Source: an uncultured Pseudomonadales bacterium
Lineage (GTDB): Bacteria > Patescibacteriota > Microgenomatia > UBA1400 > PJMF01
Direction: 5' to 3'
DNA: 58,216 nucleotides
Assembly: GCA_964509285.1 (NCBI GenBank)
Contig: CAZDWQ010000002.1
Location: forward strand, 1-58,216
Shown: piece by piece, positions 9,202 to 26,226 of the stretch
Layout: every line of letters begins with the position of its first letter
How positions within the stretch are numbered: the first letter of the stretch is position 1
Translations under genes and position numbers: made by a program
The notes under the pieces: generated by a model
Seen by the model: only the letters and a program-made list of their open reading frames with translations
Database searches by the model: none
Told to the model about the DNA's origin: nothing

Positions 9202-9202
9202 T

Positions 9203-10408: not shown

Positions 10409-10422
10409 TGGCACTTCTCAAG

Positions 10423-10508: not shown

Positions 10509-10528
10509 GTCTTGCCTATCGGCAAGAC
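10509..10528 (-). terminator. candidate terminator hairpin downstream of the DGR target gene
   Basis: GTCTTGCC-tatc-GGCAAGAC forms a perfect 8-bp stem. On the minus strand a T8 run (10491-10498) follows after about 10 nt, which is non-ideal spacing. Confidence 0.35.
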
Positions 10529-10632
10529 ACCAAATGAACCAAATCAAATATTGATAGTCAACATAAGTATTACTATAGGAGAAACTATGACTTATTTAAA
10601 CACTTATTTGTATAATATCAAAAGAGATCAAA

Positions 10633-10650
10633 CACTGTCTAACGACAGTG
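10633..10650 (-). promoter_or_regulatory. VR-proximal hairpin (7-bp stem, 4-nt loop), candidate DGR target-recognition structure
   Basis: The coding strand reads CACTGTC-GTTA-GACAGTG, beginning 7 nt beyond the 3' end of TR/VR homology. No counterpart follows the TR. Confidence 0.6.
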
Positions 10651-10657
10651 AAAAAGG

Positions 10658-10795
10658 CCTTGCGCTAACGTACACACCTAAACGAGTTAGTAGTCGTCTT
10701 GGTAATGGTGCTCGTGGCACCAGTACTCAAGTAAGTGTACCAGGCGTTAAGAGTATACGTGGTGTTAGTAGTGCTCGACCAGTAATTGGCCGCAG
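10658..10795 (-). repeat. DGR variable repeat (VR), covering the last 43 codons, the stop and 7 nt of 3' flank of the target gene
   Basis: See the TR feature. VR encodes ...AANYWSSTTNTTYTLNAWYTYLSTGATSTITKTTTNSFRCVR*. TR would encode ...NTHNAWYTNLSNGNTNNNTKTNNNSFRCVR*. Confidence 0.92.
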
Positions 10796-11895: not shown

Positions 11896-11923
11896 GTAAC
11901 AACTCATAGTGAAAGGGTTGTAT

Positions 11924-12256
11924 ATGAAAAAGCTAGTATTCTTCCAAAGCTTGGTGCTTACTTCATTGGTCGTTGCCTCACCAGCATTTGCTCAATCTAC
12001 AGAAGTTGGTCAGATCCAGTCTTTCATTCAAAGTGTTATTCAAGTTATGGTCACGCTTTCTGGTTTTATTGCAGCTGGTTTCATAGTCTGGGGTGGCGTT
12101 GGCTACATTACTAGTTCTGGAAACCCAGAAGCGCTGGATAAATCAAAGAAGACTATTCTGTATTCTGCTATTGGTCTTACTTTAGTTTTAGGAGCATTTG
12201 TTATTTCAAATATTGTCAGCCAATTAGCAACAACCGCCTTTGGGGCAGGTATGTAA
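11924..12256 (+). CDS. TrbC/VirB2-like T4SS pilin
   Basis: About 110 aa. It has a signal peptide ending AFAQS and two hydrophobic helices separated by YITSSGNPEALDKSKKT. An RBS (GAAAGGG) precedes ATG 11924. Confidence 0.7.
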   Translation: MKKLVFFQSLVLTSLVVASPAFAQSTEVGQIQSFIQSVIQVMVTLSGFIAAGFIVWGGVGYITSSGNPEALDKSKKTILYSAIGLTLVLGAFVISNIVSQLATTAFGAGM

Positions 12257-12276
12257 TAAAAGGAAGATACGTAAAA

Positions 12277-13575
12277 ATGAGCAGGTTACTTGCAACTACA
12301 TTTACAACAACACTTTTCTTGCTTTTTTCTAGTTCTCCTGTTTTTGCTCAAAGCACCAATCCTGATCTTCTTAACTTTACCAAAGATACACTCCAAATAA
12401 TAACCTTAATCGCGACCGCACTAGCGGTCTTTTTTTTAGTCTTTGCCGGATATACTTATATAACCTCAGCAGGCAAACCAGAAGCACTGGAGTCTGCCAA
12501 GAAAACTATCAAAAATACTCTTATTGGTCTTACTCTTGTTTTGGCCGCTAATGTGGTAACTTCTGTATTTCAGCATGCTCTCAATTCTCAAACTTCTCTT
12601 GGAAGTAGTTCGGCAGTTGACGTAATGAATCTTCAGACGGTTGAGCCCAGTGATGGTTTAACTCAAGTTTTAATTGATGCAGTAGCTGGATTTATTCAAA
12701 ATATTGTAGAAAGCTCAACTGCGCCGATTGTAAATGGGGTACTTGGTTACTTAACTACCACGCCAACACTTTTAGGTAATGAGGTGATACGCAACTTTTG
12801 GTTTATTACTGTTGGTATAGTGGATGGTCTGTTTATCTTGGTAGTTGCCCTGATGGGGTTACAAGTTATGAGTGCCAGCACTTTTGGATTTGAGGAAGTT
12901 GAGATAAAACATCTTTTGCCTAAACTCGGACTTACATTCTTACTAGCAAATATTTCACTCTTTTTAGCAGATTACGCTATTATCACCTGTAATACTTTAG
13001 TCAAAGTTATTCTTGATTCAACTGGAGGGCTTAATCACACATGGATTGAAAATGCTTTTAATCCAACTGCTGTCATTACTGGAACAACACCACTAATTAT
13101 CCTTATTTTTATGGTTTTGTTTTTGATTGTCTCGATTGTATTACTATTGATGTACATTAGTCGCCTCATTTTTATTTCCCTAGGAGCTGTTTTGTCTCCA
13201 TTTATCTTTTTACTCTCTGCCTTGCCAAAATTTTCTGATTTTGCCTTTATTGCTATGAAAACCTACTTAGTAAGTGTTTTTGTTGTGTTTGTGCATGTAA
13301 TTATTATTCAACTGGCAAGTGCTTTTTTAACTCTGCCTGAGCACAATGAAAACTCACTAATTTCTATTGCCATTGGCATTGGATTATTTATTACATTGCT
13401 CAAGACCCCAAACTTAATGATGCAGATGGTCTTGTATACCTCAAATTCTGGATCTATGAGAAAACTTGGAAATCAAATTATTAATGTTATGACGACAGAC
13501 AATGCATCTGCAGGCAGTAGAATCAGTGCAAAAAATGCAGCTGTAAAAGTAACTGAAAAGGCAATCAAAGTATGA
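12277..13575 (+). CDS. T4SS membrane protein: VirB2-like N-terminal module fused to a VirB6/TrbL-like polytopic domain
   Basis: The N-terminal ~100 aa are paralogous to the preceding pilin (AQST..., YITSAGKPEALESAKKTI..IGLTLVL). These are followed by about 6 further TM segments. Confidence 0.55.
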   Translation: MSRLLATTFTTTLFLLFSSSPVFAQSTNPDLLNFTKDTLQIITLIATALAVFFLVFAGYTYITSAGKPEALESAKKTIKNTLIGLTLVLAANVVTSVFQHALNSQTSLGSSSAVDVMNLQTVEPSDGLTQVLIDAVAGFIQNIVESSTAPIVNGVLGYLTTTPTLLGNEVIRNFWFITVGIVDGLFILVVALMGLQVMSASTFGFEEVEIKHLLPKLGLTFLLANISLFLADYAIITCNTLVKVILDSTGGLNHTWIENAFNPTAVITGTTPLIILIFMVLFLIVSIVLLLMYISRLIFISLGAVLSPFIFLLSALPKFSDFAFIAMKTYLVSVFVVFVHVIIIQLASAFLTLPEHNENSLISIAIGIGLFITLLKTPNLMMQMVLYTSNSGSMRKLGNQIINVMTTDNASAGSRISAKNAAVKVTEKAIKV

Positions 13576-14081
13576 GAAGTCAAGTAATTCCCGCTCAAAT
13601 AACCACAGTGGAAGATAAAATTGCAGGTGATTTTAGTATGACGCAAATTATGCTGTTATTATTACCTGTCTTAATTACCTCGGCAATTTATGCATTCATG
13701 CCACCAAGCATGACACTGGTTATTTATAAGTTAGTACTGGCAAGTGTGCTTGCAATCTTTTGTATTACTCTAGCTGTGCGAGTAAAAGGTAGACTTGTTG
13801 CAAATTGGCTTTTAGTGTTTGCTCGATACAACCTACGCCCTAAGTTTTATATTTACAACAAAAACACGACGCTTTACAGAGAAGTGATTAAGCCAGAAAT
13901 AGTGTTGAATGCTGTGCAAAAAACAGCACGCCAAAAGAAAAAAACCAAACTAATCAGTACTCCTAATATTCGTGACATTCTGCAACTCAATCATATTTTA
14001 GACACCACCGATTTTAACTTCATCTACAAAACAGGCAAGAAAGGAGGGCTGAATGTGGCTTTTGAAAAAGTCTCTAGATAA
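13572..14081 (+). CDS. PrgI/VirB3-like small T4SS membrane protein
   Basis: The N-terminus QVIPAQITTVEDKIAGDFSMTQIMLLLLP plus two TM helices match the PrgI-family pattern. The gene sits immediately upstream of VirB4 and overlaps its neighbour by 4 nt. Confidence 0.6.
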   Translation: MRSQVIPAQITTVEDKIAGDFSMTQIMLLLLPVLITSAIYAFMPPSMTLVIYKLVLASVLAIFCITLAVRVKGRLVANWLLVFARYNLRPKFYIYNKNTTLYREVIKPEIVLNAVQKTARQKKKTKLISTPNIRDILQLNHILDTTDFNFIYKTGKKGGLNVAFEKVSR

Positions 14082-14673
14082 GGTTAGTTCTAGAAACCAA
14101 ATTGCAATCAAAGAAGTGCGTGATGGTATTTTAGTTTTACCTAATAATGAACATCGTTTAATTATCGAAACTTCCCCTGTAAACTTTGAACTTAAAAGTG
14201 AGGCCGAACAAGATGTGTTGATTGATAGTTTTCAGAATTTTTTGAATTCTCTACCAACGCAGTTGCAGATTTTAATTCGTATCCGCGAAGTAGATATTGA
14301 TCAATACATCGACTCAATTGAGTTGCTCAAGACGACAGAAACAGATGATCAATATTTAGAGCATATTGATGACTACACTCAGTTTATTCGCCAGCTTGTA
14401 TCTGGAAATAAAATTTTATCTCGCAAGTTCTACATTGTGCTTCCATATAAGCCAGAAAATTCCAACAACGCATTTGATCTTGCAAAAACACAACTGAATC
14501 TCACCCAAGATATGGTAATTAAGGCGCTTGAAAAACTAGGTATGAAAGCTCGAACTTTAAATAGCTTGGAAGTCTTGCAACTTTTTTATAGTTTCTACAA
14601 TAAAAACCAACTTAAAACTCAAGAATTATCTAGTGCAACAATGAAAGCAGTCTTGGAGCATAACTATGTTTAA
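14053..14673 (+). CDS. VirB4-family ATPase, N-terminal domain encoded as a separate ORF
   Basis: IKEVRDGILVLPNNEHRLIIETSPVNFELKSEAEQDVLIDSFQNFLNSLPTQLQILIRIREVDI matches the N-terminal domain of Gram-positive VirB4/TraE/PrgJ proteins. An 8-nt overlap (ATGTTTAA) links it to the next ORF. Confidence 0.7.
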   Translation: MWLLKKSLDKVSSRNQIAIKEVRDGILVLPNNEHRLIIETSPVNFELKSEAEQDVLIDSFQNFLNSLPTQLQILIRIREVDIDQYIDSIELLKTTETDDQYLEHIDDYTQFIRQLVSGNKILSRKFYIVLPYKPENSNNAFDLAKTQLNLTQDMVIKALEKLGMKARTLNSLEVLQLFYSFYNKNQLKTQELSSATMKAVLEHNYV

Positions 14674-16480
14674 TCTTGTGCAATCAAACTATCAAATTAT
14701 AAAAAAATGGAATTCTAAAAAGATGCGTAAATTCCGTGCTGGTCAGGAAAAGAAGCGTCGAGAACGGTTGTCCCTACAGTTTAGTTTTGGTGAGCAAGAT
14801 CAAGTTGATCTGATTTCATATTCTGGATTGATGGAAGAATCAACCTATGTGCAGATTGGCGACACCTTTGTACGAACACTGTTTATTTCTGGCTATCCAT
14901 ATGTAGCTAATGTAGGTTGGTTAAATATGCTTATAAATTTTAACCATGACTTGGATATTTCATATCATATTGAACAAGTAGATCCTTTAATGGCTCTGCC
15001 AAAACTTAATCGCAAAATAACTGAGCTTGAATCAACCAAACGAAGCATGCTTAAAGCCGGAAAAGTGATTGGTTCTGAAATTACTGATCCGCTTGAGTCT
15101 GCCATGGAACTGAAAGACAAAATCCAAAGAGGGCAAGAAAAACTCTTTCAGATATCTATTTATATGACTTTGAGTGCAAGTAGTTTGGAAGAGTTAAATA
15201 AAACTACTCAGGTGTTAGAGACAATCATGGCCTCCAGAATGTTTTATATTAAAACTGCCACCTTTCAGCAATTAGAAGGTCTACAATCTGTTTTACCAAG
15301 GGGTGAAAACCAACTCGCACAAAAAAGAAACTTGGATAGTTCGAGTGCCGCACTTACTTTTCCGTTTGTTTCATCTGAGCTAGTGCAAGAATCTGGTATT
15401 TTGTATGGAATTAATAAGTCAAATAACTCGCTGGTCATTGTGGATCGGTTTTCTTTGAATAATGCTAACTCAATTATTTTTGCTCAATCTGGAAGTGGTA
15501 AAAGCTACACTGCTAAGGTCGAAATCTTGCGTCAACTCATGCAACAAACCAAAGTGATTGTTATTGACCCAGAGCGGGAATATAAACAACTTGCTAAATC
15601 TATTGGTGGCACATATATTCGTTTGTCTGCAACTTCTAAAGAGAAAATTAATCCTTTTGATTTTTCGCTTAAATCTGTGACTGGTGAAAATGGACTGGCT
15701 GAACACATTCAAGATCTAACTGAGATTATTTCATTGATGGCAGGTTCACTCTCTGATGAAGAACGTGCAGTGGTAGATAAAGCATTGATTAAAACTTACA
15801 AGCAGTTTGGTATTAGTATGAGAAAACAAAAGTATGAAGAAAAAGTAAAGTTCCCACTTCTCAAAGATTTTTATAAAGTGCTCAAGACCATGAAACAAAA
15901 AGAATTGTGTCACAGGTTAGATAAGTTTGTGAGTGGTTCACTTTCTAGCGTATTTACCGCACAAACTAATGTAGATCTATCTAACAGACTGGTTGTTTTT
16001 GATATTAAAGATCTTGATGAGTCATTGCGCCAGATAATGATTCTCACAACTGCCAATTTTGTTCACTCACAGGTGAAAAGTGATCCACAAAAAAGAATTT
16101 TAGTCATAGATGAGGCTTGGTTGCTATTACAACATGAAGAAAGCGCTCGATTCCTAGCAGGTCTTGTAAGGCGTGCCCGCAAACATTACTTAGGAGTGAC
16201 TTTAATTTCTCAACAAGCTAATGACTTTTTGAATCAAGAATACGGCAGAGTTATTGCCTCACAATCATCTTTGAGAATTCTGATGAAACAGGATACAACC
16301 TCAATTAAAAAAGTAGTGCAAGAATTTAACTTGAGTGAGTATGAGCAACAATTTTTACTGACTTGTGATCGAGGCGAAGCCTTAATTATTGCTGATCAAA
16401 ACCATGTTGCCGTTAAAATTGTTGCTTCAGAAAAAGAACACCCAATGTTAACCACTGATCCGAAAGATTTATATCTATAG
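14666..16480 (+). CDS. virB4: VirB4-family T4SS ATPase (central and C-terminal ATPase domains)
   Basis: Walker A FAQSGSGKSYT and Walker B RILVIDEAWLLL are present, plus YLGVTLISQQ. The context is T4SS genes. Confidence 0.9.
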   Translation: MFNLVQSNYQIIKKWNSKKMRKFRAGQEKKRRERLSLQFSFGEQDQVDLISYSGLMEESTYVQIGDTFVRTLFISGYPYVANVGWLNMLINFNHDLDISYHIEQVDPLMALPKLNRKITELESTKRSMLKAGKVIGSEITDPLESAMELKDKIQRGQEKLFQISIYMTLSASSLEELNKTTQVLETIMASRMFYIKTATFQQLEGLQSVLPRGENQLAQKRNLDSSSAALTFPFVSSELVQESGILYGINKSNNSLVIVDRFSLNNANSIIFAQSGSGKSYTAKVEILRQLMQQTKVIVIDPEREYKQLAKSIGGTYIRLSATSKEKINPFDFSLKSVTGENGLAEHIQDLTEIISLMAGSLSDEERAVVDKALIKTYKQFGISMRKQKYEEKVKFPLLKDFYKVLKTMKQKELCHRLDKFVSGSLSSVFTAQTNVDLSNRLVVFDIKDLDESLRQIMILTTANFVHSQVKSDPQKRILVIDEAWLLLQHEESARFLAGLVRRARKHYLGVTLISQQANDFLNQEYGRVIASQSSLRILMKQDTTSIKKVVQEFNLSEYEQQFLLTCDRGEALIIADQNHVAVKIVASEKEHPMLTTDPKDLYL

Positions 16481-17101
16481 ATGCATGCTGTTTTTACCGC
16501 CCACACCATTTGGTCTTTTAGAAAAGAGTTGCAATTTGTAGCCCTCACTTTCTTGATTTTGATATCACTACCGATTATTGCAGTAGTTATTTTAACCAAC
16601 ACTGGTATCAATATTGTCTCGGATGCTTTAATCGATATTGAGCCAGAGACACAAACTATCTTGATTAAAAACCCTGCAGATGGGTCAGTAGTAAAAGAAG
16701 TGTCTAAAAAAGTTGCTTGGCCTGTAAATGGCAAAACCACCCTCGATTTTGCAGACTCAAGTAAATATCAGAAATTCCACGCAGGAATTGATATTGCTAA
16801 TGCTAGTGGGAGAGTTGGTGATCCCATTACTCCGTTTATGGAAGGCACTGTTACTTACGCTGGAGAAATTTTCTGGGGTTATGGCAAACACGTCATGATT
16901 GATCATGGGGATAATATTTCTTCTGTGTATGCACATCTAGACCGTATTCAGGTTTATAAGGGTCAGGAAGTGAATATCGGTGACACTATTGGCACTATGG
17001 GTAGTACTGGCTGGTCTACAGGGCCTCATTTGCATTTTGAGATTAGGGTGTATGGGGTGCCGGTGAATCCGAAAGTCATTCTATTAAATAATTTAAAATG
17101 A
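16481..17101 (+). CDS. M23/LytM-family peptidoglycan endopeptidase (T4SS-associated hydrolase)
   Basis: An N-terminal TM is present. Metal-site motifs are HAGIDIA (HxxxD) and GPHLHFE (HxH). The ATG directly abuts the virB4 stop. Confidence 0.9.
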   Translation: MHAVFTAHTIWSFRKELQFVALTFLILISLPIIAVVILTNTGINIVSDALIDIEPETQTILIKNPADGSVVKEVSKKVAWPVNGKTTLDFADSSKYQKFHAGIDIANASGRVGDPITPFMEGTVTYAGEIFWGYGKHVMIDHGDNISSVYAHLDRIQVYKGQEVNIGDTIGTMGSTGWSTGPHLHFEIRVYGVPVNPKVILLNNLK

Positions 17102-17185
17102 TTAATATTTATGATCCTATTTAGTCAAGATAAAGTAATCTAAAGTCTTATAATAAAATTATAATGTGATATAATAATGAAATAA

Positions 17186-19342
17186 ATGAACAATAAACCA
17201 ATTTCAGCATTATCACTACCACTGAGATTAGAAAACTCGTTAAGACGTAATAAAATTGTCTATCTTAATGATTTGCAAATAATCGACGAAGAATTATTGG
17301 GAAAAATTAAGAATATTGGACCCAAATCTGTTCAATTAATTAAAAAGTCCTTAAAAGAATACTTAATCTTAAAAGAAAATTTTTCAGAAAAGTCATTGTT
17401 AAACAAAGATTTGCAATCAATTATTAAAATGATTTCATTTTCTAAACTAGAAAATAGTGCATTTTCAACAATAAACATTTATGATGAGCATAAAGAAATT
17501 TCAAATATAAACACCACGATAAATGAAGATCATAATGAAATTGAAAATAATGACATTGTGTCAAATAATAATCATAAGCAAGTAGCAAATTATCCGATAT
17601 TTTCAATCAATCTTCCAGAGAGAATAGAAAATTCATTAATTAAATCTAATATTAATACTCTTTCATCTTTAGCAAATTGTCATCAATCTGACCTACTTAA
17701 AATTAAAAATATAGGTCAAACATCAATAAATATAATTATTTCTCAAGCAAAAAGGTTCATATCAAAAAACTTCTCCAAAATTATTGATATTTCTGAGTTA
17801 GAAAATATTGATAGTTTTAATGATATCTCGTCATTATTGAAAGAATTACTAACTAAACAAGCAATAGAATCAAGAAAAAATTTGCAATCAAAATCTAAAG
17901 AAGAAATGATATTAGATTATTTTAGTGATTTAGAAACCTATCTAAATGATTTTATTCAATCTAATATTCTAACAAATAAAGAAAAAATAATTCTAAATAA
18001 TAGGTTGAGAATAATGAAGAATAATTCGTCTATTAGAACATATACACTTGAGGAAATTGGAAATAATAACCAAGTTAATCTCACAAGAGAAAGAGTTAGA
18101 CAATTAGAAAAAAAGTTACTTATAAAATTATCAAATAAAATAGATTTTTTTAATTCATTTCATTTTAATGAACACCAATTAATAAGGACAGTAATAATAA
18201 ATTATGTAAATCAACTTGGATTCATACAATGGCCAAATGATCTGCCTTTATTAATTAATGAACTAAATGTAAATAATAAGCTCTTAAATATTAAGTTTTA
18301 TGAATATTTAACTTTTCGTGAAATTAACAAAATTAGCGGGCTAAATGAGTATAAATATAAAGATTTATCATACTTTTTTTATAATGATGATTTTAATAGG
18401 ATCCAAATTAATAATATTTTAAAGAACTGTATAAATAGATTAAAGAAATATGAATATCCTATTATAAATGAAAATGATTTGTATGATAAATCTCTACTAA
18501 ATACAAAAGAAGTGAAATTAATCAGAGATATTATTTCAAAGTTATCAGATTTCATTTTTTTTGACAATCAATACAAGATTAAAGAAATGAAACCGTATCA
18601 ATTTGCATATTTAATTCTTGAAGAACACAATAATCCCATGCATTACGAGATACTATTTAATAAAATTAAGGAACGGACTAATGTTGGCTCAATATTAACT
18701 TTTAAAAATTCCTTACTAAATGACAAACATATAATCACTCAAGGGAATGGGATGTATGCATTAAACAAATGGGGATTGAAAAGATATAAAAGAAATGTCC
18801 ATTATGGAAAGAATACTGTAAAAAATCTCATAAGGGAATATATAGCTATAAATCTAAACGCATCCAATGATCAAATTAAACAATATGTTTTAAGCAAAAG
18901 AAATGCTGCTGATACAACAATTACACAAGGTATTTCTGATGTCAATCAGAAACTGAACAGGCATAGTAAAAAAATTTCAATTCCGGATTTAATTATTGAG
19001 TTCTTTTCAAATCATAAAGAAGCAAATTTTAAACAAATTTATACCTACATTGAAAAAAGAAAGCATAATGTTAAAAAGGGTCAAGTTTATACCGCAATTT
19101 ATAACTATTGCAAAAAGAATGATGAGGGAAATTACTATTTATATAAAAATAAGAAAAAAAGAGTCAAAAATAACTCAATAAAAGAAAAATTAATCTTATG
19201 TTTAAAAGAAAATACACCGCTTACTTTAGATGAAATATTTGTAATATTATCAAAAAATAATAAAGTTAGTAAAAATACTATAAGATCTTACATAAGTAGT
19301 CTTGAAATAAAACAAGATGAAAATGGAAAATACTCATTATAA
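17186..19342 (+). CDS. 718-aa multi-HTH DNA-binding protein: two RpoA alpha-CTD-like HhH modules, sigma-70 region-4-like HTH, HARE-HTH-like module and further wHTH-like repeats
   Basis: Alpha-CTD-like modules: LSLPLRLENSLRRNKIVYLNDL...LLGKIKNIGPKSVQLIKKSL and INLPERIENSLIKSNINTLSSL...LLKIKNIGQTSINII. Sigma region-4-like: YTLEEIGNNNQVNLTRERVRQLEKKLLIKL. HARE-HTH-like: PYQFAYLILEEHNNPMHYEILFNKI...GNGMYALNKWG. Confidence 0.65.
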   Translation: MNNKPISALSLPLRLENSLRRNKIVYLNDLQIIDEELLGKIKNIGPKSVQLIKKSLKEYLILKENFSEKSLLNKDLQSIIKMISFSKLENSAFSTINIYDEHKEISNINTTINEDHNEIENNDIVSNNNHKQVANYPIFSINLPERIENSLIKSNINTLSSLANCHQSDLLKIKNIGQTSINIIISQAKRFISKNFSKIIDISELENIDSFNDISSLLKELLTKQAIESRKNLQSKSKEEMILDYFSDLETYLNDFIQSNILTNKEKIILNNRLRIMKNNSSIRTYTLEEIGNNNQVNLTRERVRQLEKKLLIKLSNKIDFFNSFHFNEHQLIRTVIINYVNQLGFIQWPNDLPLLINELNVNNKLLNIKFYEYLTFREINKISGLNEYKYKDLSYFFYNDDFNRIQINNILKNCINRLKKYEYPIINENDLYDKSLLNTKEVKLIRDIISKLSDFIFFDNQYKIKEMKPYQFAYLILEEHNNPMHYEILFNKIKERTNVGSILTFKNSLLNDKHIITQGNGMYALNKWGLKRYKRNVHYGKNTVKNLIREYIAINLNASNDQIKQYVLSKRNAADTTITQGISDVNQKLNRHSKKISIPDLIIEFFSNHKEANFKQIYTYIEKRKHNVKKGQVYTAIYNYCKKNDEGNYYLYKNKKKRVKNNSIKEKLILCLKENTPLTLDEIFVILSKNNKVSKNTIRSYISSLEIKQDENGKYSL

Positions 19343-19358
19343 AGTGTATAATTGACAT

Positions 19359-19532
19359 ATGAAAAAAAATGATGATGATCTGATTCTACTCAAGGATCTT
19401 TGCCAAAAATATGAACTAAACTTTGATAAAGTAGAAAAACTCATAGAAGTTACAAAAGAATTTGAGATTAAGGATACTAGAAATGGCATTTATAATGCTT
19501 TAAAAGAGATAATTGAGAACAGAAATTTTTAA
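19359..19532 (+). CDS. 57-aa hypothetical protein (below ORF-track cutoff), packed between island genes
   Basis: Hand translation gives MKKNDDDLILLKDLCQKYELNFDKVEKLIEVTKEFEIKDTRNGIYNALKEIIENRNF. Its stop lies 2 nt before the next ATG. Confidence 0.4.
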   Translation: MKKNDDDLILLKDLCQKYELNFDKVEKLIEVTKEFEIKDTRNGIYNALKEIIENRNF

Positions 19533-19534
19533 TA

Positions 19535-21514
19535 ATGATAATTAAAAGAATTTTAATAGATAATTACAAATCATTCCAAAAACCAACTGAAATATATTTC
19601 CCATCTACTGATGATGAAAAGAATATCTTTTTAATTGGAGGCATGAATGGCGCTGGTAAAACATCATTATTAGAAGCAATTTCAATCTCACTTTATGGTG
19701 AAAAAAAAGAGTATATTTACAAAAGAATAAATAAAAATGAATTTGAAAATAATAATTTTTCGGTCATTTTTGAATTAGAATTAGAAACAGACGAATTTGA
19801 CATTTTAATAATCAGAAGAACCTACAAGTGTAACGAGCCAAATAATCCAAATCCTAGTAATTTTGAGGAATTACTTTCTATAACCAAAAATGGCGAACAA
19901 ATTAGTTATAGAAATAATAACGCTTGGAATGATTATATAGCCTCAAGATTCCCAAAGAGTATTACCCAGTTTTTCTTTTTTGATGGTGAAAAAATTCAAG
20001 AAGTTGCCGACGATGATCATTTTGAAATTAGATTAAAAAGCTCATTAGAGGCTGCTCTTGGTATTAAATTTTTATCTCAATTATCATCTGATATATCAAA
20101 AGTTAAGCAAACTGAAAGACAAGGTTTTATTGAAATATCAAATGAAGATATAAAATTAAAAGAAAATAATATTGAATTGTTAAATAGTAAAATAAATAAA
20201 TTAAATAATAATAGAAATATAATTCAAAATGAAATTAATGATTTAGAAAAAGAACATAGTTTAATTAAAAAAAGATTTAAAATACTATTTAACCAGGATC
20301 CAGAACAAGCAGATGAAATTAATAAAAAAGAATTAGAAAAAACTCAATTAATTATTAAATTAAATAAAATTGAAAACGAAATAAAATTAGTAATCGAAAA
20401 TTTTTTACCTTTATCATTGAGCAGTTCAGTTTTTGCTGATATTAAAAAACAAATTGAAGCAGAATCTGATTCTTCACAGCAGACCACACTTAAAGATTCC
20501 ACAGAAATCATAGTGGATATTGCAATAAAGTCTCTTTATGAACCCTATAAAATAATCTCTAATGATCTCTCAACAAAAGATCAAAATGAATTTAAAAAAA
20601 GAATTAGAGATTACATTGATACAGATAAAAATAATAATGATAAGATTTTGGACTTAACACAAAGAGAGGCTGCAAGTATTCTAAATGTCATCAAAAATAT
20701 TGAACAAAGCGACATTAGAAGACTAGACATTCTTATTGAAGAAAAATCTGAATTAGAAAACAGTTTGAAATTTATAAATGAAAATTTAAGAACTAGAAAT
20801 GATAATGATCAAAGTACCTTTTCTTCTCTTCAAGATGAAATTGATAATTTATCAACTCAGATAGGAAGAAAGAATGGTGAACTAAATTCTGTAATCGACT
20901 CAATTCTTGAAAATGAAGAAAAGATTAAGAAAGAAGAAAATGACTTATCTTATCTTTATGAAAGAATTAACTTATCAAAAGAAAAATCAGACTTCATTAC
21001 TGAATGCGAAAATCTATCAACAATGCTAAATGAATATGTAGTACTTCTAAGAGAAAAGAAAAATAAATTACTTAAAGAAAAAACTCTTGAGATGTATAAA
21101 CTTTTATCAAGTAAAAGCGATCTTATTTCCGATATAATAATAGACCCAAATACATACGAAGTAATCATCAAAGATACCAATAACTTAGAAATTAAAAAAT
21201 CTGTTTTATCAGCTGGTGAAAAAGAAGTTTTTGCCATCTCGCTACTTTGGGGATTAGCTCAAACTAGCAAAATTAATCTTCCAATAATTATTGATACTCC
21301 ATTATCAAGACTAGATAGTCTTCATAGAGATAATATTATAAATAATTATTTTCCAAATTCAGGAAAACAAGTAATTATTTTATCTACCGATACAGAAGTA
21401 GATAACAAATATTATCAGGATTTGAAAAAATATCTGGTTGGATCAGGTACGTTATTTTTTGATAAAGATAAACAAAGAACTTCCTTTAAAGAAAATTATT
21501 TTGGAGAAAATTAA
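19535..21514 (+). CDS. DndD/SspC-like SMC-type ABC ATPase
   Basis: The N-terminus is IFLIGGMNGAGKTSLLEAISISLYG, followed by a long central coiled coil. The C-terminus is LSAGEKEVFAISLLWGLAQ..PIIIDTPLSRLDSLHRDNIINNYFP..QVIILSTDTEV. Confidence 0.8.
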   Translation: MIIKRILIDNYKSFQKPTEIYFPSTDDEKNIFLIGGMNGAGKTSLLEAISISLYGEKKEYIYKRINKNEFENNNFSVIFELELETDEFDILIIRRTYKCNEPNNPNPSNFEELLSITKNGEQISYRNNNAWNDYIASRFPKSITQFFFFDGEKIQEVADDDHFEIRLKSSLEAALGIKFLSQLSSDISKVKQTERQGFIEISNEDIKLKENNIELLNSKINKLNNNRNIIQNEINDLEKEHSLIKKRFKILFNQDPEQADEINKKELEKTQLIIKLNKIENEIKLVIENFLPLSLSSSVFADIKKQIEAESDSSQQTTLKDSTEIIVDIAIKSLYEPYKIISNDLSTKDQNEFKKRIRDYIDTDKNNNDKILDLTQREAASILNVIKNIEQSDIRRLDILIEEKSELENSLKFINENLRTRNDNDQSTFSSLQDEIDNLSTQIGRKNGELNSVIDSILENEEKIKKEENDLSYLYERINLSKEKSDFITECENLSTMLNEYVVLLREKKNKLLKEKTLEMYKLLSSKSDLISDIIIDPNTYEVIIKDTNNLEIKKSVLSAGEKEVFAISLLWGLAQTSKINLPIIIDTPLSRLDSLHRDNIINNYFPNSGKQVIILSTDTEVDNKYYQDLKKYLVGSGTLFFDKDKQRTSFKENYFGEN

Positions 21515-23040
21515 TGTCAGATAGACTTTTTACATCATCAGATACAGAAAAAATTATTAGAGAATTAAGATTAGAAACAAAACTAACTCAAACTTTGTTA
21601 TCGAAAGTTGCTTTTATTATTTCACTAACAAAAGTAGGAAATAAAGTTAGTAGTAATAATGACTTTAAAGGAATGAGAGTCAATAGAACTGCATTCAATG
21701 GAGAAGATGAAATTTTTATTCGTACACTAATTAGACATGCTTATAAAAAAACCACTTTTACTGATGATGAAATCTTTTCAAATAAATCAATAATTAAGTA
21801 TCATATTGATAATGGTGCTCAAGAGCTAAACAACATTTACAAGAATGTAAATTTTGATACCAACTCTTTTTTAAAAAGTTTGGCTGTAATTGCATCAAAA
21901 GATCTTAATAACACATATTTGGGTAAAGATTTAAATATTTTCTTAGGGAATACAACTCTTGAGAATGATAGTTTAATAATGGAATTAAATAATAGTGCTA
22001 AACATGCAAATTCGCATATGGCAATCATGGGAAAGCCTGGTGTTGGTAAGACACAATTCTTACTGAAAATTTTAACTGATATTAGAATACAATCTAAATT
22101 TCAAACAAATTTTATATTTTTTGACTACAAAGGTGACGTCGTAACAAACGAAAATTTTGTAGATCAAACAAAAGCCTCTACTTACAAGTTATTAAATAAT
22201 AATCAAACTATACCAATAAATCCTTTTATTTTACCAAGCTACGATGAACAATCAGTGCTAATCTCATCAAGAGAAAAAGCAGAATCATTTGCTTCAATAA
22301 ATTCAAAGTTAGGAACTGTTCAAAAGGGTACGCTTTCTGAGGCTATTAAAATTGCATACTCAAAAAGAAAGAAGCTTGAACTTCCATATCCAGATTTTAA
22401 AGAAGTATATACAATTATTCAAAAAATTTACGAAGAAGAAGAGAGAAGGAATGATAGTCTCATTGAGGTAATGAAAGACCTTTCTGATTTCAACTTATTT
22501 TGGAGTCATGGAGATAGCTCAAAACCAATAGAACAGCTTTCCAATCGAACAATGATTGTTGATATTCATTCCATGCCTGTTCTTAAAGAATTAGTAGGAT
22601 ACTTAGTAATTGAGAGATTATATAAAGAAATGCTCACTCTACCTGATAGTCCTATCGAAAATGGCAAGCGCACCATTAGAACAATATTAGCAATTGATGA
22701 AGCACATAATTATCTACCTCAAAAAAATATATTTTTACAAAGGATTATTAGAGAAGGAAGATCTAAAGGAATTTTTGTTTTCTTTGCATCTCAATCACCC
22801 AATGATTACCAGCAACAAGATTTTAATTTTCAGGAATTACTAGAATTTGCATTTATATTTCAAACTGAAGGTGTATCTGCAAAATCAGTCCAAGATATTC
22901 TAGGTTGTACAAATAATACTGCTAAAGAGCTGCAAACAGAAATTTCTAGATTATTACCATTTCAAACTATTTCAAAAAGCTTTTCTAAAAATAAAGAATT
23001 TACTAAGTTTAAAGCTGAAGCATTTTATAAGAATTACTAA
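21514..23040 (+). CDS. fusion protein: DndE-like N-terminal domain plus HerA/FtsK (DUF87)-type P-loop ATPase
   Basis: The N-terminal ~110 aa (FTSSDTEKIIRELRLETKLTQTLLSKVAFIISL...NRTAFNGEDEIFIRTLIRHAY...KYHIDNGAQEL) follow the DndE pattern. Walker A is IMGKPGVGKTQ and Walker B is ILAIDEAHNYL. The start overlaps the DndD-like stop (TAATG). Confidence 0.65.
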   Translation: MSDRLFTSSDTEKIIRELRLETKLTQTLLSKVAFIISLTKVGNKVSSNNDFKGMRVNRTAFNGEDEIFIRTLIRHAYKKTTFTDDEIFSNKSIIKYHIDNGAQELNNIYKNVNFDTNSFLKSLAVIASKDLNNTYLGKDLNIFLGNTTLENDSLIMELNNSAKHANSHMAIMGKPGVGKTQFLLKILTDIRIQSKFQTNFIFFDYKGDVVTNENFVDQTKASTYKLLNNNQTIPINPFILPSYDEQSVLISSREKAESFASINSKLGTVQKGTLSEAIKIAYSKRKKLELPYPDFKEVYTIIQKIYEEEERRNDSLIEVMKDLSDFNLFWSHGDSSKPIEQLSNRTMIVDIHSMPVLKELVGYLVIERLYKEMLTLPDSPIENGKRTIRTILAIDEAHNYLPQKNIFLQRIIREGRSKGIFVFFASQSPNDYQQQDFNFQELLEFAFIFQTEGVSAKSVQDILGCTNNTAKELQTEISRLLPFQTISKSFSKNKEFTKFKAEAFYKNY

Positions 23041-23050
23041 TTTAATTAAT

Positions 23051-23257
23051 ATGTCATCACTACAAAAATTCGGTCAAAACCTTAAAATGGCAAGAGAAAG
23101 TAAAAACCTAACTCAAGAAGAGCTTGCAACTAAAGCTGATCTTAGTGCTAATTACTTTGCAAAGATTGAAAGAGGTGAAATAAACATCACTTATAAAACC
23201 TTATATAAGATCATTATTGCTTTAAAAACGAAATCATCTGAAATTTTACCATTTTAA
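23051..23257 (+). CDS. XRE-family helix-turn-helix regulator
   Basis: LKMARESKNLTQEELATKADLSANYFAKIERGE is a classic HTH_XRE sequence. 68 aa. Confidence 0.85.
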   Translation: MSSLQKFGQNLKMARESKNLTQEELATKADLSANYFAKIERGEINITYKTLYKIIIALKTKSSEILPF

Positions 23258-23457
23258 TTCTTAAGCACTTTAGTTTTTTTTCTTTCCAAATCTTTTAATT
23301 CCGAAGTAAAAATCCTGAGGCAAATTTCAATCATATCTAGATGTATAATTGTCTCCTGCAATGAGCCATTTGAATTCTTTTTGGCAATATTATACAAATT
23401 TTTTACAATATCCATGTTTTTTTTCATTGCTATCTGCGACTTAGTACTTATTTTCAT
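23254..23457 (-). CDS. 67-aa hypothetical protein downstream of the PLD nuclease gene
   Basis: An ORF only, co-oriented with the PLD gene. No motif was recognised. Confidence 0.35.
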   Translation of the reverse strand: MKISTKSQIAMKKNMDIVKNLYNIAKKNSNGSLQETIIHLDMIEICLRIFTSELKDLERKKTKVLKN

Positions 23458-23515
23458 AAATTCTACCTTTCATTAGAAAATATTATTTGAGATATACTAT
23501 CACGCTTTTTTGATA

Positions 23516-24007
23516 TCAAATAAATTTTTCAAGTTTTAAAAAATCGAACATAACTTGAGCATGGTTAGCCCCTTGAATCCTTCTCATAATTTCTCGACTC
23601 TTTGTTTGTGACAAAATATTAAGACTTCCTTCCCACAATATTTTTCTATCTAATATTGCAAGTTTTCTATGATGATTATTGGTGGCTGATAAAACATGAA
23701 CTCCCAGAATCTCAAATTCTTTAATTATTTGTCTGGAATAACTTGCCAGTGGTTCTTTTAAAAGGTTGGCACTTTTTGTTATTACATAGACTTTTATATC
23801 TTTTTCAATTAGTTTTTCAAAGATTGGGAATAAATGATCCATTCTGGCTAACGATATAAACGGACTTTCAATGATGACTTCTTCTTCACATTCGAGTAAA
23901 TCATTAATGAATGAAGGATAAAAAGTTTTCTCATCAAATAGTTTTGAATTAAAAACGTCAGATTTTTTTGTTTTAGTCTTAAACCACATCAGAATCTCCC
24001 TCTTCAT
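23516..24007 (-). CDS. PLD-superfamily (HKD) nuclease, Nuc-like single-domain
   Basis: HxKxxxxD plus GSxN is present as NHHRKLAILDRKILWEGSLNILSQ. The 163-aa size is typical of Nuc/NucT-type endonucleases. Confidence 0.8.
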   Translation of the reverse strand: MKREILMWFKTKTKKSDVFNSKLFDEKTFYPSFINDLLECEEEVIIESPFISLARMDHLFPIFEKLIEKDIKVYVITKSANLLKEPLASYSRQIIKEFEILGVHVLSATNNHHRKLAILDRKILWEGSLNILSQTKSREIMRRIQGANHAQVMFDFLKLEKFI

Positions 24008-24180
24008 CTATTTGATATGCTATCATTAACTTATGAAAATGAACTAGAAGTGGTTCAAAATAAAAGGCGTCTCCTCCACATAGTTTTAATACTAGAAAAA
24101 ACTTTCAAATTGTAATAAAATACGGGTATTCGTAGATAAGGTTCATAAGAAAACTGTACCAACAGTAAACTCGAAAAAGT

Positions 24181-24216
24181 AACAAGCTTCCATTAATTGG
24201 GAGCTTGTTTTGTTTT
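24181..24216. terminator. orphan bidirectional terminator-like hairpin
   Basis: AACAAGCTTCC-N7-GGGAGCTTGTT is followed by TTGTTTT on the plus strand and by ACTTTTT on the minus strand. Confidence 0.45.
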
Positions 24217-24329
24217 ACACCGACATTTTTTAATAGAATAAACTGTTTTAACCAATAAAGTATGAAAAAGTATGACCCATAGATCGGTCCTTTTTTAATT
24301 TTGGTACTTGCAAGCTCTAGCATAAAAAT

Positions 24330-24368
24330 CTAGAATGAAGTTCTAGTGCCCAACACTAGATTTTTTTT
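24330..24368 (+). terminator. two overlapping, mutually exclusive hairpins; the second is followed by T8
   Basis: The first hairpin is CTAGAA-tgaag-TTCTAG (24330-24346). The second is CTAGTG-cccaa-CACTAG (24343-24359), followed by A and TTTTTTTT. Confidence 0.5.
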
Positions 24369-24458
24369 ACCGCCAGCCCAAAATCTAACGAAGTTTCCAT
24401 CCTGCATTCAGTTGCGGAAACGGTTGATTAAGAAACAGAATCAACAAAACTCACAAAA

Positions 24459-24487
24459 ACAAAGTCAAACAGACTTTGTTTTTTTTT
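24459..24487 (+). terminator. strong intrinsic terminator-like hairpin in the argG upstream region
   Basis: ACAAAGTC-aaaca-GACTTTGT is followed by a run of about 9 T. Confidence 0.6.
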
Positions 24488-24604
24488 GCCCCGAATTAAG
24501 AGTGGGGGCGCCCACTCAGAAGCCTGAAAAATTTAAATTCAGGCGCCCCCAAACAATCCGCCCAAATCCCCAGTATTTATTAGTACAGGAAAGGAGGAAG
24601 GACC

Positions 24605-24922
24605 ATGCAAGCGCCTACCTACACTAAAGTATCAAATTACGAAGGAAGGAAGGGAGAAGTCAAAAAAGTTGTACTTCTGTATTCTGGAGGGCTTAACACT
24701 TCTGTCATGCTCAAGTGGATTCAAGAAGAATATGGTGCCCAAGTTGTCGCCCTCACCATAGATATTGGCCAGCAAGCTGATGACCTTGAAGAAATCAGAA
24801 AAAAGCACTCAAATTTGGAGCTGTCAAAACCATCGTCATCGACGCCAAAAATGAATTCGCCTACCACTATATTGCCAAGGGAATCAAGGCAAATGCCAGT
24901 TATCAAGGCAAATATCACATGA
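24605..24922 (+). CDS. argG: argininosuccinate synthase, N-terminal fragment (frame 0; authentic sequence only up to codon ~66)
   Basis: [37 protein letters not shown] is the N-type ATP pyrophosphatase P-loop region. After EIRKK the translation becomes nonsense, while the -1 frame continues as ArgG. Confidence 0.85.
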
Positions 24923-26226
24923 GCACGCCTTTAGGCAGGCCACTGCTTGCTAAACTCGCCGTCCAAGTTGCCAGAGATGAAGAGTGTGACACGATCGCTC
25001 ACGGGTGCACCTGCAAAGGCAATGATCAAGTCCGCATCGAAGGCACCGTCCTCACCCTTACCCCAGAAATGAAAATCATTACCCCCGTTCGCGAGTGGAG
25101 TATGGGCCGTGATGAAGAAATCGCTTATGCAAAAAAATATGGCATTCCGGTCAAGCAAACCGTCGACAAGCCGTATTCCTACGATGACAACATGTGGGGC
25201 GTGACCGGGGAGAGTGGAGAAATCGAAAATCCGGCCCTGATTCCTCCGCTAGATAAAATTCTCCAAGTTTGCAGTTTAGTAGAAAAAACCCCAGATAAGC
25301 CACAATACATCAAACTTAACTTTGTCAAAGGCATTCCGGTCAAACTTGATGGCAAACACCTGGGGCTTACTGAAGTTATCCATAAACTCAATGCACTTGG
25401 CGCCAAACATGGAGTAGGGGTGACGCATCATATAGAAGATCGGTTGGTCGGACTCAAAGTTCGCGGACTCTATGAAGCTCCTGCCGCCGAGATTATTATC
25501 AACGCACACTTTAATCTGGAAAAATATGTCTGTACTCGGGTTGAAAATGAGTTTAAGGCTGAAGTTGACAACAAATGGGCATATCTCTGTTATGGCGCAC
25601 TCTGGTATGAGCCACTTATGGATGACCTCAACGCATTTATCGATAAAATCAACGAGAAAGTTACCGGAACCGTTACCATCAAACTCTTTAAAGGTGTCGC
25701 CGAAGTGGTCGCAGTAGAAACTGCCAACTCAATTTTCGATGAAAAACTGGCAACCTTTATGCGAAATAACGCCTACAACCAAAATGCTTCGCCTGGATTT
25801 ATCGAAATTTACACTATGCAGATGCGTTTGGCTCAAAAGAAAGAGCGGTTTGTGCTCCTTACTATCGGCGGTGATTCAAACAAGAGAAAATTCCTCCCGG
25901 CTATTAAGGAACTAGACAAACTTGGCTACCAATTTTACGCCACTGAGAATACACACAAGTTCTATGAAAAACACGGGATACGTTCCGTCTTCATATACAA
26001 GATGTATGAAAATAAAAATCCAAATATTGAGGATGTTCTCAGGCAAGATATATTCGATTTAGTCATTCATATCCCATACAAGAGCAACCCAAAGGAGGCA
26101 AAACTCGATGAGAGCATCGTTAAAAAGTGGGCTGTACGAACAGAAGTTCCAATTATCAACGACGCCAAAATTTTGAATGAGTTAGTGAAGAAACTCAAGA
26201 AAAATATGGTGGTGGCTAGTAAGTAA
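24919..26226 (+). CDS. argG: argininosuccinate synthase, main body (frame open from 24805) with C-terminal MGS-like domain
   Basis: [38 protein letters not shown] and ...[21 protein letters not shown] are ArgG motifs. The extra ~125 aa, [46 protein letters not shown]..., resemble the CarB allosteric MGS-like domain. Confidence 0.9.

What the first reader, a model, noticed from the sequence alone, without database searches (positions are those of the whole stretch)
21514..23040. DndE-like nicked-DNA-binding domain fused to a HerA/FtsK-type ATPase
Residues ~5-110 (FTSSDTEKIIRELRLETKLTQTLLSKVAFIISL ... NRTAFNGEDEIFIRTLIRHAY ... KYHIDNGAQEL) follow the pattern of stand-alone DndE (~110-130 aa), which binds nicked dsDNA. 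The rest is a DUF87/HerA-FtsK-like P-loop with Walker A GKPGVGKTQ and Walker B ILAIDEAHNYL. This domain combination would couple recognition of a DNA lesion or nick to a hexameric translocase. I do not recognise it as a described architecture. Translational coupling to the DndD-like gene (TAATG) suggests the two proteins form a complex.
Basis: partly seen in the sequence, partly recalled or inferred. Interest (0 to 1): 0.65.

Follow-up and report, generated by a model that had tools for sequence, protein, structure and literature searches.

The report
DndE–HerA/FtsK fusion ATPase, already described
The gene really encodes a DndE DNA-binding module fused to a HerA/FtsK motor ATPase and paired with DndD, but this fusion is a widespread family already noted in the literature; here it sits in an untested variant cassette that has a multi-HTH DNA "reader" and no DNA-modifying enzyme.

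Summary
ORF 21514-23040 (508 aa) has an N-terminal DndE domain. Pfam scores it 39 bits (cutoff 25), a profile search hits the solved DndE structures 7X4E, 5WTU and 4LRV, and Foldseek on the AlphaFold2 model finds only DndE. The C-terminal half is an intact HerA/FtsK ATPase whose closest relative is the DndH/DptH C-domain (7ES4, TM 0.88). The start overlaps the stop of a bona fide DndD gene (TAATG).

The fusion is not an artefact. More than 890 homologs of about 508 aa exist across many phyla, and identical fragments occur in independent metagenomes.

It is not an undescribed architecture. [quoted passage not shown] NCBI names the family "DndE family protein". Pfam holds a model (PF20306) for the accompanying 57-aa small protein, which I found at 19359-19532.

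The conserved core is Sp-DndD + DndD + DndE::HerA. Most relatives add a nuclease-methylase and a specificity subunit, and a distant subfamily adds DndC. The window belongs to a well-supported sub-clade that instead carries an alpha-CTD/sigma-4/HARE-HTH reader, in a low-GC island. The likely role is an ATP-driven DNA-scanning anti-invader module. This is untested.

The parts
17186..19342 (+). 718-aa non-enzymatic multi-HTH 'reader'. It has two RNA-polymerase alpha-CTD (HhH) modules, a sigma-70 region-4 HTH, a weak HARE-HTH match at residues 474-497, and further wHTH-like repeats.
   Evidence: Pfam RNA_pol_A_CTD, 2 stretches, E 6.3e-19; Sigma70_r4 E 6.3e-5; HARE-HTH E 0.13. Proteins with the same domain order precede the DndD/DndE::HerA core in the contig of P0002, in L030 and in L023/L024/L025. 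The protein evolves fast: only one distant homolog was found.
19359..19532 (+). 57-aa small protein Sp-DndD, a free-standing homolog of the C-terminal ~50 residues of DndC.
   Evidence: PF20306 Sp-DndD 32.7 bits (cutoff 27.2), E 8.3e-8. It aligns to positions 397-446 of 447 of TIGR03183 DndC (E 3.2e-5) and 407-457 of 505 of PRK06850, and to PADLOC DndC 405-455 of 481. It is present upstream of DndD in all informative loci.
19535..21514 (+). [quoted passage not shown] It belongs to the DndD clade, not the CxC clade.
   Evidence: TIGR03185 352.6 bits (cutoff 245.85). PADLOC DndD E 3.9e-119. Walker A 35-44, signature LSAGEKE 558-564, Walker B/D-loop IIIDTPLSRLD 584-594; the only cysteines are at 99 and 491, so there is no CxC motif.
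21514..23040 (+). The finding: the DndE::HerA/FtsK fusion protein (508 aa).
21523..21840 (+). DndE module (residues 4-109): two ribbon-helix-helix units, approximately residues 4-44 and 55-111.
   Evidence: Pfam DndE. Profile hits to 7X4E, 5WTU and 4LRV. AF2 secondary structure E4-6/H9-22/H26-44 and E55-57/H58-77/H93-111. Foldseek finds DndE only.
21859..21933 (+). C-terminal helix of the DndE module (residues 116-129/132) followed by a short flexible linker (residues 131-137, pLDDT < 50).
   Evidence: AF2 models. Rakesh et al. propose that this C-terminal helical extension of DndE contacts the ABC ATPase.
21934..23037 (+). HerA/FtsK-type P-loop ATPase (residues 141-508), closest to the DndH/DptH C-terminal ATPase.
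   Evidence: 7ES4 by sequence E 7.7e-20 and by fold TM 0.88. PADLOC DndH E 5.9e-39.
22030..22056 (+). Walker A GKPGVGKTQ (residues 173-181).
   Evidence: G173, G176, G178, K179 and T180 are invariant.
22684..22716 (+). Walker B ILAIDEAHNYL (residues 391-401). It is followed by the invariant R413/R416-S-K-G and Q427.
23051..23257 (+). 68-aa XRE-type HTH, similar to the controller (C) proteins of R-M systems. It starts 10 nt after the fusion gene.
   Evidence: Pfam HTH_3 E 9.9e-13. PADLOC Control_protein E 4.9e-13. A 40%-identical HTH heads the methylase-type operon in L002.
23516..24007 (-). 163-aa single-domain HKD/PLD nuclease, convergent to the operon and inside the low-GC island. It is a possible local effector but is not conserved with the family.
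   Evidence: PLDc_2 28 bits (cutoff 27). PADLOC MkoC E 1.8e-10 and DrmC E 4e-5. No homolog lies near any of 25 related loci.
17102..24100 (.). Low-GC island (24-30% GC against 35-45% in the flanks) that contains all parts listed above.

Best explanation
Identity. The ORF is a member of the known but experimentally untested DndE::HerA/FtsK family. This is 'clade-3' of the HerA/FtsK tree of Rakesh et al. 2024, and NCBI calls it 'DndE family protein'. It is the last core gene of a horizontally acquired cassette in this order: reader, Sp-DndD, DndD, DndE::HerA, XRE controller.

Shown here:
- A complete DndE module (two RHH units plus a C-terminal helix) is joined by a ~7-residue flexible linker to an intact HerA/FtsK ATPase closest to that of DndH.
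- The triad Sp-DndD + DndD + DndE::HerA is the invariant core across phyla.
- Sp-DndD is homologous to the DndD-binding C-terminal tail of DndC.
- The window belongs to a distinct sub-clade that carries a fast-evolving HTH reader instead of a methylase-nuclease or DndC.

Inferred mechanism:
1. A DndD dimer clamps DNA in an ATP-dependent way, with Sp-DndD occupying the head site that DndC uses in phosphorothioation systems.
2. The DndE module docks on the DndD coiled coil, as canonical DndE does. This tethers a hexameric HerA/FtsK ring that pumps double-stranded DNA through or along the clamp, so the complex scans DNA.
4. The outcome is interference with invading DNA. The effector is unknown; the island's HKD nuclease is one candidate.
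For: Domain identity.

Intact catalytic motifs that are invariant over 21 diverse sequences.

Family size and conservation: at least 890 homologs, 59-71% identical, across Bacteroidota, Pseudomonadota, Bacillota, Spirochaetota and Omnitrophota. The representative search gave 1089 hits, and after the full-length ~500-540-aa proteins the next relatives are ~1700-aa DndH proteins.

Invariant triad: DndD precedes the fusion gene in 24 of 25 loci, and Sp-DndD is present in all informative loci.

Sp-DndD equals the DndC tail.

Published interaction data (PMC12193691): in E. coli B7A, DndC residues 433-482 and the DndC C-terminal helix bind the DndD head and coiled-coil-1, and DndD coiled-coil-2 binds DndE. 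The paper verified these predicted interfaces with pull-down assays.

Defence context of relatives: a nuclease-methylase, an HsdS-like subunit, RAMA, a PD-T4-1-like protein, Septu-like ABC+HNH inserts and neighbouring Type I R-M genes.

Low-GC island.

Published interpretation: DndD-DndE as a DNA-scanning core, and HerA/FtsK 'capture' in anti-invader systems.
Against: No experiment exists for any member of this family, so defence activity, complex formation, hexamerisation and translocation are all inferred.

The HKD nuclease is not conserved with the family.

The rest of the genome could not be searched for DndC, DndA or methylases, because the genome search was shut.

The island lies next to type IV secretion-like genes, so a role in DNA transfer cannot be excluded on position alone.
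Confidence: 0.72

Rival explanations
1. The cassette is the scanning half of a split phosphorothioate (or other) DNA-modification system whose DndC/DndA, or a methylase, is encoded elsewhere in the genome.
For: [quoted passage not shown] The distant ~530-aa subfamily (L023, L025) does sit next to a bona fide DndC (TIGR03183 456 and 438 bits, cutoff 290) and, in L022, next to DndB. DndA is often replaced by housekeeping IscS.
Against: No DndC, DndA or N6-methylase homolog lies in the 58-kb window. Sp-DndD is a detached copy of the DndC tail that binds DndD, which suggests the DndC docking site is filled without DndC. All four reader-type loci with known context lack DndC, and they form their own clade.
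Confidence: 0.12
2. The protein is a DNA-transfer component of the neighbouring type IV secretion-like apparatus: a TraY-like RHH relaxosome accessory fused to a TrwB/VirD4/FtsK-like coupling ATPase.
For: The island directly follows pilin, PrgI, split VirB4/TraG-P-loop and M23 peptidase genes. Pfam TrwB_AAD_bind scores 25.5 bits (cutoff 20.5). The DndE fold resembles TraY. TrwB and VirB4 are among the structural matches.
Against: The TrwB match covers only 57 residues around the P-loop. GC content drops from 35-38% in the secretion genes to 24% in the island, so the adjacency is secondary. None of 25 related loci carries a VirB4/TraG homolog, while nearly all carry DndD. The closest structure is DndH, not TrwB (TM 0.88 against 0.5).
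Confidence: 0.05
3. The cassette is a decaying remnant of a methylase-type or DndC-type system and has no function.
For: It lacks the modification and nuclease genes present in most relatives.
Against: All five ORFs are intact. All catalytic motifs are retained. The same reduced layout recurs in at least three other independent contigs that form a supported clade. L024 shows the same layout in the distant subfamily.
Confidence: 0.05

Closest known systems
DndE fused to HerA/FtsK next to a DndD-related ABC ATPase: 'clade-3' HerA/FtsK of Rakesh, Aravind & Krishnan, NAR 2024 (PMC10853773), citing Krishnan et al., NAR 2020. NCBI name: 'DndE family protein'.
   Same: It has the same two domains in one polypeptide, the same DndD neighbour, and the same closest relatives (the DndH ATPase domain). 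It is 59-71% identical to proteins that NCBI and JGI label DndE.
   Different: The paper gives one sentence and places these proteins in phosphorothioate-modification systems. In the loci I examined, the large 508-aa subfamily is linked to an adenine methylase-nuclease or, as in this window, to an HTH reader with no modification enzyme. Krishnan et al. 2020 could not be read here.
Canonical DndCDE phosphorothioation complex (DndC, DndD, stand-alone DndE of ~110-130 aa)
   Same: DndD passes the equivalog cutoff. The DndE fold is present. The DndC tail survives as Sp-DndD. The published DndD-DndE and DndC-DndD contacts give a template for assembly.
   Different: The window has no DndC catalytic domain, DndA or DndB. 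DndE is fused to a motor ATPase and scores below the TIGR03184 equivalog cutoff (36.4 against 71.85).
DndH/DptH of the DndFGH restriction system (C-terminal HerA/FtsK ATPase, PDB 7ES4)
   Same: It is the best sequence and structure match for residues 140-505.
   Different: DndH is ~1700 aa with large N-terminal regions that have no counterpart here. No DndF or DndG is present. Here the N-terminus is DndE.
Methylase-coupled DndD / DndE::HerA cassettes (HSDR_N-N6_Mtase protein + HsdS-like + RAMA + Sp-DndD + DndD + DndE::HerA)
   Same: The core triad is the same, at 59-64% identity for the fusion protein. An XRE controller is also present.
   Different: The window lacks the methylase-nuclease and the specificity subunit, and it belongs to a separate, supported clade.
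MADS (mad1-mad8) methylation-associated defence system
   Same: Both are multi-gene methylation-linked defence operons that end in a HerA-like ATPase. The PADLOC mad8 model matches residues 140-434 (E 7.3e-20).
   Different: MAD7-MAD8 is described as an ATPase-nuclease module, with no DndD or DndE. The mad8 match is much weaker than the DndH match, and the neighbouring VirB4-like protein matches mad8 even better. The window is not a member.

Membership tests
DndE::HerA/FtsK fusion family ('DndE family protein', clade-3 of Rakesh et al. 2024) | DndE domain and HerA/FtsK ATPase in one polypeptide | tested here: met
   Pfam DndE 4-109 and AAA_10/DUF87 162-471. AF2 single-chain model, pLDDT 88.
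DndE::HerA/FtsK fusion family ('DndE family protein', clade-3 of Rakesh et al. 2024) | Gene adjacent to a DndD-related ABC ATPase | tested here: met
   The upstream gene is DndD (TIGR03185 352.6 bits, cutoff 245.85). There is a 1-nt overlap.
DndE::HerA/FtsK fusion family ('DndE family protein', clade-3 of Rakesh et al. 2024) | HerA/FtsK domain groups with the DndH ATPase domains | tested here: met
   The best PADLOC, PDB-sequence and Foldseek hits are all DndH/DptH. After the full-length family members, the next relatives are ~1700-aa DndH proteins. I did not build a tree that includes other HerA/FtsK clades.
DndE::HerA/FtsK fusion family ('DndE family protein', clade-3 of Rakesh et al. 2024) | High full-length similarity to annotated members | tested here: met
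   59-71% identity over 100% of the length to at least 120 proteins, several named 'DndE family protein'.
Canonical DndE (TIGR03184 equivalog) | Double ribbon-helix-helix fold | tested here: met
   AF2 secondary structure and Foldseek matches to 4LRV, 5WTU and 7X4E.
Canonical DndE (TIGR03184 equivalog) | Score above the equivalog cutoff and stand-alone size of ~110-130 aa | tested here: not met
   TIGR03184 36.4 bits against a cutoff of 71.85. The protein is 508 aa.
Canonical DndE (TIGR03184 equivalog) | Preferential binding of nicked dsDNA | not testable with these tools
   This is a biochemical property reported for canonical DndE only.
Dnd phosphorothioate-modification system (DndABCDE) | DndC sulfurtransferase (PP-loop ATPase) in the locus | tested here: not met
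   No PAPS_reduct/DndC domain was found in the window ORFs I scanned with profiles (7.6-34 kb). ORFs outside that range were not scanned. Only the ~50-aa tail homolog Sp-DndD is present. The rest of the genome could not be searched.
Dnd phosphorothioate-modification system (DndABCDE) | DndD-DndE pair | tested here: met
HerA/FtsK-type translocase | Intact Walker A, Walker B (DE) and conserved arginines | tested here: met
   G173-T180, D395-E396, R413/R416 and Q427 are invariant.
HerA/FtsK-type translocase | Hexameric ring and dsDNA translocation | not testable with these tools
   Only monomer prediction was available.
MADS | mad2 methylase, mad5 specificity subunit, MAD3-MAD4 and MAD7-MAD8 modules | tested here: not met
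   The window has no methylase or specificity subunit. The mad8 model hit is generic and weaker than DndH. For the MAD7-MAD8 description.
Type IV coupling protein (TrwB/VirD4/TraD) | Full-length match to the coupling-protein ATPase and linkage to T4SS/relaxase genes across genomes | tested here: not met
   The TrwB_AAD_bind match covers only residues 163-219. There are no T4SS genes in the 25 related loci. The GC break separates the island from the T4SS genes.

The most novel reading that the evidence does not exclude
In this reading, a Rad50-like clamp tethered to a HerA/FtsK ring scans DNA and is aimed, or triggered, by a fast-evolving protein that copies the RNA-polymerase surfaces (alpha-CTD, sigma region 4) that phages commonly target. 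Sp-DndD would be a domesticated DndC tail that keeps DndD assembly-competent without sulfur chemistry.
Probability: 0.12. Interest if true: 0.7.

Novelty: new member of a known kind. Interest (0 to 1): 0.33.

Why it matters
The finding as written (an undescribed DndE + HerA fusion) is not new, so its value lies in context.

The family is large, very well conserved and spread across phyla, yet nothing about it has been tested. The loci examined here suggest that the published one-line assignment to phosphorothioate systems fits only a minority subfamily.

The window represents a sub-clade with no modification enzyme at all. It would be a clean system for asking two questions: what the DndD-DndE 'scanning core' does by itself, and why it needs a ring translocase and a leftover piece of DndC.

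Earlier notes from this scan place the host in Patescibacteria. I did not test that assignment. If it holds, the cassette also adds to the sparse picture of defence-like cassettes in that group.

Tried and rejected
I could not test whether DndC, DndA or a methylase lies elsewhere in the genome.
- Krishnan et al. 2020 (NAR 48:10045), the primary citation for the fusion, is not held by DOI or PMC id. A search for 'Sp-DndD' in papers and in the supplements of PMC10853773 found nothing.
- I considered MADS because of the mad8, mad2 and mad5 model hits. I rejected it: MAD7-MAD8 is an ATPase-nuclease pair with no DndD or DndE, and the mad hits are weaker than the generic ones.
- I considered a T4SS coupling-protein role because of the neighbouring genes. 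I rejected it on the GC break and the lack of co-occurrence in other genomes.
- I looked for homologs of the 718-aa reader to test co-occurrence. Only one distant hit was found, on a short contig without DndD. BLASTP against the L025 reader gave only a marginal match in the HARE-HTH region (E 0.069), so the link rests on shared domain order, not on alignable sequence.
- The promoter/terminator scan of the island found no excess of promoter-like sites. The only terminator-like hairpins lie outside the operon, at 24181-24483.
- The repeat search found no convincing att-like direct repeats at the island borders.
- A contig 'joint' skipping 18933-21925 in run X1 has only 21 nt on one side. I treat it as spurious.


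Full report
**Observation**

ORF 21514-23040 on the + strand is open and encodes 508 aa.

Pfam places DndE (PF08870) on residues 4-109, covering model positions 1-107 of 111 (E 9.6e-10, 39.2 bits, cutoff 25). It places AAA_10 and DUF87 (HerA central domain) on residues 162-471.

In PADLOC the C-terminal two thirds match the C-terminal ATPase of DndH best (E 5.9e-39), and the N-terminus matches DndE models.

The stop of the upstream gene and the start of this gene overlap as TAATG. The upstream gene (19535-21514) passes NCBI's DndD equivalog cutoff (TIGR03185, 352.6 bits against 245.85). It has no CxC motif, so it belongs to the DndD clade, not the CxC/PbeC clade.

Test 1: does the N-domain resemble DndE by profile or structure?
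- A profile built from 22 N-terminal segments hits the three solved DndE proteins over their whole length: 7X4E at 3.3e-7, 5WTU at 1.6e-4 and 4LRV at 3.9e-3.
- An AlphaFold2 model of residues 1-139 (pLDDT 91.4, pTM 0.85) retrieves only DndE chains at Foldseek probability 1.00, with target-normalised TM 0.65-0.72. The next matches are TraY chains of the F-plasmid relaxosome, with E > 0.6. This is the relationship Rakesh et al. noted for DndE.
- The model shows two strand-helix-helix units (about residues 4-44 and 55-111), a further helix (116-129/132) and a disordered linker (131-137) before the ATPase.

Test 2: is the fusion an artefact?
- A search of 5.8 billion proteins returned at least 890 homologs. 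The best 120 are nearly all 507-510 aa long, 59-71% identical over full length, and nearly all carry both domains. They come from many phyla, and several are named 'DndE family protein' by NCBI.
- Contig fragments with no differences cover the DndD/DndE junction and parts of the ATPase in two further metagenomes.

The fusion is therefore real.

**The ATPase half**

Residues 140-505 align to the crystal structure of the DptH/DndH C-domain (7ES4) by sequence (E 7.7e-20).

The full-length model (pLDDT 88.2, pTM 0.72) superposes on 7ES4 with TM 0.88 and rmsd 2.6 A. The following matches are TdpA, the HerA of SIR2-HerA systems, VirB4 and TrwB.

In an alignment of 21 sequences that includes members only 22-24% identical, these residues are invariant: the P-loop G173/G176/G178/K179/T180, D395-E396, R413, R416-S-K-G and Q427. 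The domain is therefore very probably an active, oligomerising NTPase. That last step is inference.

**What is already known**

[quoted passage not shown] They cite Krishnan et al. 2020, which I could not open.

The same paper argues three further points:
- DndD and DndE are a co-evolving DNA-scanning core.
- DndE consists of two RHH domains with a variable DNA-binding face.
- HerA/FtsK domains were repeatedly 'captured' by anti-invader systems.

The architecture is therefore described, though only computationally and in one sentence. I found no experimental work on it.

**The cassette**

It matches Pfam PF20306, 'Small protein found in certain Dnd DNA modification systems' (32.7 bits, cutoff 27.2).

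It also aligns to the last ~50 positions of DndC models: TIGR03183 397-446 of 447, PRK06850 407-457 of 505, and PADLOC DndC 405-455 of 481.

In E. coli B7A, DndC residues 433-482 and the DndC C-terminal helix are predicted to bind the DndD head and coiled-coil-1, and DndD coiled-coil-2 is predicted to bind DndE. The paper verified these interfaces with pull-down assays (PMC12193691). Sp-DndD is thus most simply read as a free-standing DndD-binding tail of DndC. The exact residue correspondence is an inference.

A homolog of this small ORF lies upstream of DndD in all informative related loci, and DndD precedes the fusion gene in 24 of 25 genome loci. The invariant core is Sp-DndD + DndD + DndE::HerA.

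Downstream, 10 nt after the fusion gene, is an XRE-type HTH that resembles R-M controller proteins. A 40%-identical HTH heads the operon in L002.

**Variable accessories**

In 16 of 25 genome loci, and also in L031, the core is preceded by three kinds of gene:
- a ~930-aa protein with a Type I R-protein N-terminal (nuclease-fold) domain plus an N6-adenine methylase;
- a ~455-aa HsdS-like specificity subunit;
- often RAMA or PD-T4-1-like proteins.

L001 and L014 also have a Septu-like ABC ATPase + HNH pair inserted between Sp-DndD and DndD.

A distant ~530-aa subfamily (L022-L025, 22-28% identical) is also a DndE::HerA fusion. L023 and L025 sit beside a genuine DndC, and L022 beside DndB. This is the phosphorothioate-linked subset.

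The window has neither accessory set. Its upstream gene (17186-19342) encodes two RNA-polymerase alpha-CTD modules, a sigma-70 region-4 HTH, a weak HARE-HTH match and no enzymatic domain.

The same kind of reader precedes the core in several other places:
- the closest homolog's contig (P0002, 71% identical: alpha-CTD protein, 57-aa ORF, DndD, fusion);
- L030 (an alpha-CTD fragment plus a HARE-HTH protein);
- L023, L024 and L025 of the distant subfamily.

L024 repeats the DndC-less layout. In L026 a 247-aa wHTH protein takes this place.

A maximum-likelihood tree of the fusion proteins puts the four reader-type loci (plus one of unknown context) in a clade with 99/98 support, separate from the methylase-type clades. 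The window's layout is therefore a stable lineage, not a broken copy.

In contrast, the motor is 59-71% identical across phyla. This pattern (conserved engine, variable sensor) is typical of conflict systems; that generalisation is my own knowledge.

**Genomic setting**

All these genes, plus a convergent 163-aa single-HKD nuclease (23516-24007), lie in a 7-kb island of 24-30% GC between flanks of 35-45%. Upstream are type IV secretion-like genes and downstream is argG.

The nuclease has no counterpart near any related locus. I list it as a possible local effector only.

Earlier notes of this scan assign the genome to Patescibacteria. I did not test this.

**Mechanism**

Shown:
- the domain identities;
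- intact motifs;
- the invariant triad;
- homology of Sp-DndD to the DndC tail;
- clade structure that follows accessory type.

Inferred from published DndCDE interaction data and from the general behaviour of Rad50-like ABC ATPases and HerA/FtsK rings:
1. DndD dimers clamp DNA.
2. Sp-DndD fills the DndC docking site.
3. The DndE module docks on the DndD coiled coil and tethers a hexameric pump.

The output in reader-type cassettes is unknown. I put 0.72 on 'member of the known DndE::HerA family acting as the motor/DNA-binding subunit of a DndD-centred anti-invader module'. Identity alone I put above 0.95.

Rivals:
- a split modification system (0.12);
- a DNA-transfer role with the adjacent T4SS genes (0.05);
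- a decaying remnant (0.05).

**Verdict**

The novelty claim is not supported. The gene is a new member of a known but uncharacterised family, in a less-noticed variant cassette.

Noticed in passing
It is homologous to the last ~50 residues of DndC, the region reported to bind DndD.
   Followed up: yes
window 24346-26226: The argG ORF 24919-26226 starts at position 86 of the Pfam N-terminal domain model. The short ORFs 24346-24627 and 24605-24922 lie just upstream in other frames, so this is a probable frameshift or pseudogene. The protein also carries a C-terminal MGS-like domain.
   Followed up: no
window 7582-11507: A diversity-generating retroelement: bAvd, a reverse transcriptase, and an Lcl_C-domain target gene on the minus strand. 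A Fic-domain gene lies at 9203-10408.
   Followed up: no
window 11909-17101: A type IV secretion-like cluster: two pilin-domain proteins, PrgI, a VirB4-like ATPase apparently split into 14053-14673 (TraC_F_IV) and 14666-16480 (TraG P-loop), and an M23 peptidase.
   Followed up: no
window 17078-17092 and 24225-24239: A 15-nt inverted repeat (93% complementary) lies at the two edges of the low-GC island. In such AT-rich DNA this may be chance.
   Followed up: no
L001 6048-7990 and L014 6002-8003: A Septu-like pair (AAA_15/AAA_21 ABC ATPase + HNH nuclease) is inserted between Sp-DndD and DndD in two Flavobacteriaceae loci.
   Followed up: partly
L020 6580-9981: In a Tenacibaculum genome, DndD is split into two pieces (residues 1-580 and 576-656) by ~1.4 kb carrying a 410-aa ORF on the opposite strand. 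This is probably an insertion sequence.
   Followed up: no
L008 8320-11515: A Leptospiraceae locus has a DndE::HerA gene with no DndD upstream. The upstream gene is an unrelated 559-aa protein.
   Followed up: no
L023 1548-2825: In the DndC-linked subfamily, the C-terminus of DndC itself matches the Sp-DndD Pfam model (residues 376-418, E 0.0015). This fits the idea that the small protein originated from the DndC tail.
   Followed up: partly
L026 4772-11884: A reader-type cassette is followed directly by a complete Type I R-M system (HsdR, HsdS, DUF3800, HsdM) and a YhcG/EVE-like nuclease. This looks like a defence island or a functional pairing.
   Followed up: no
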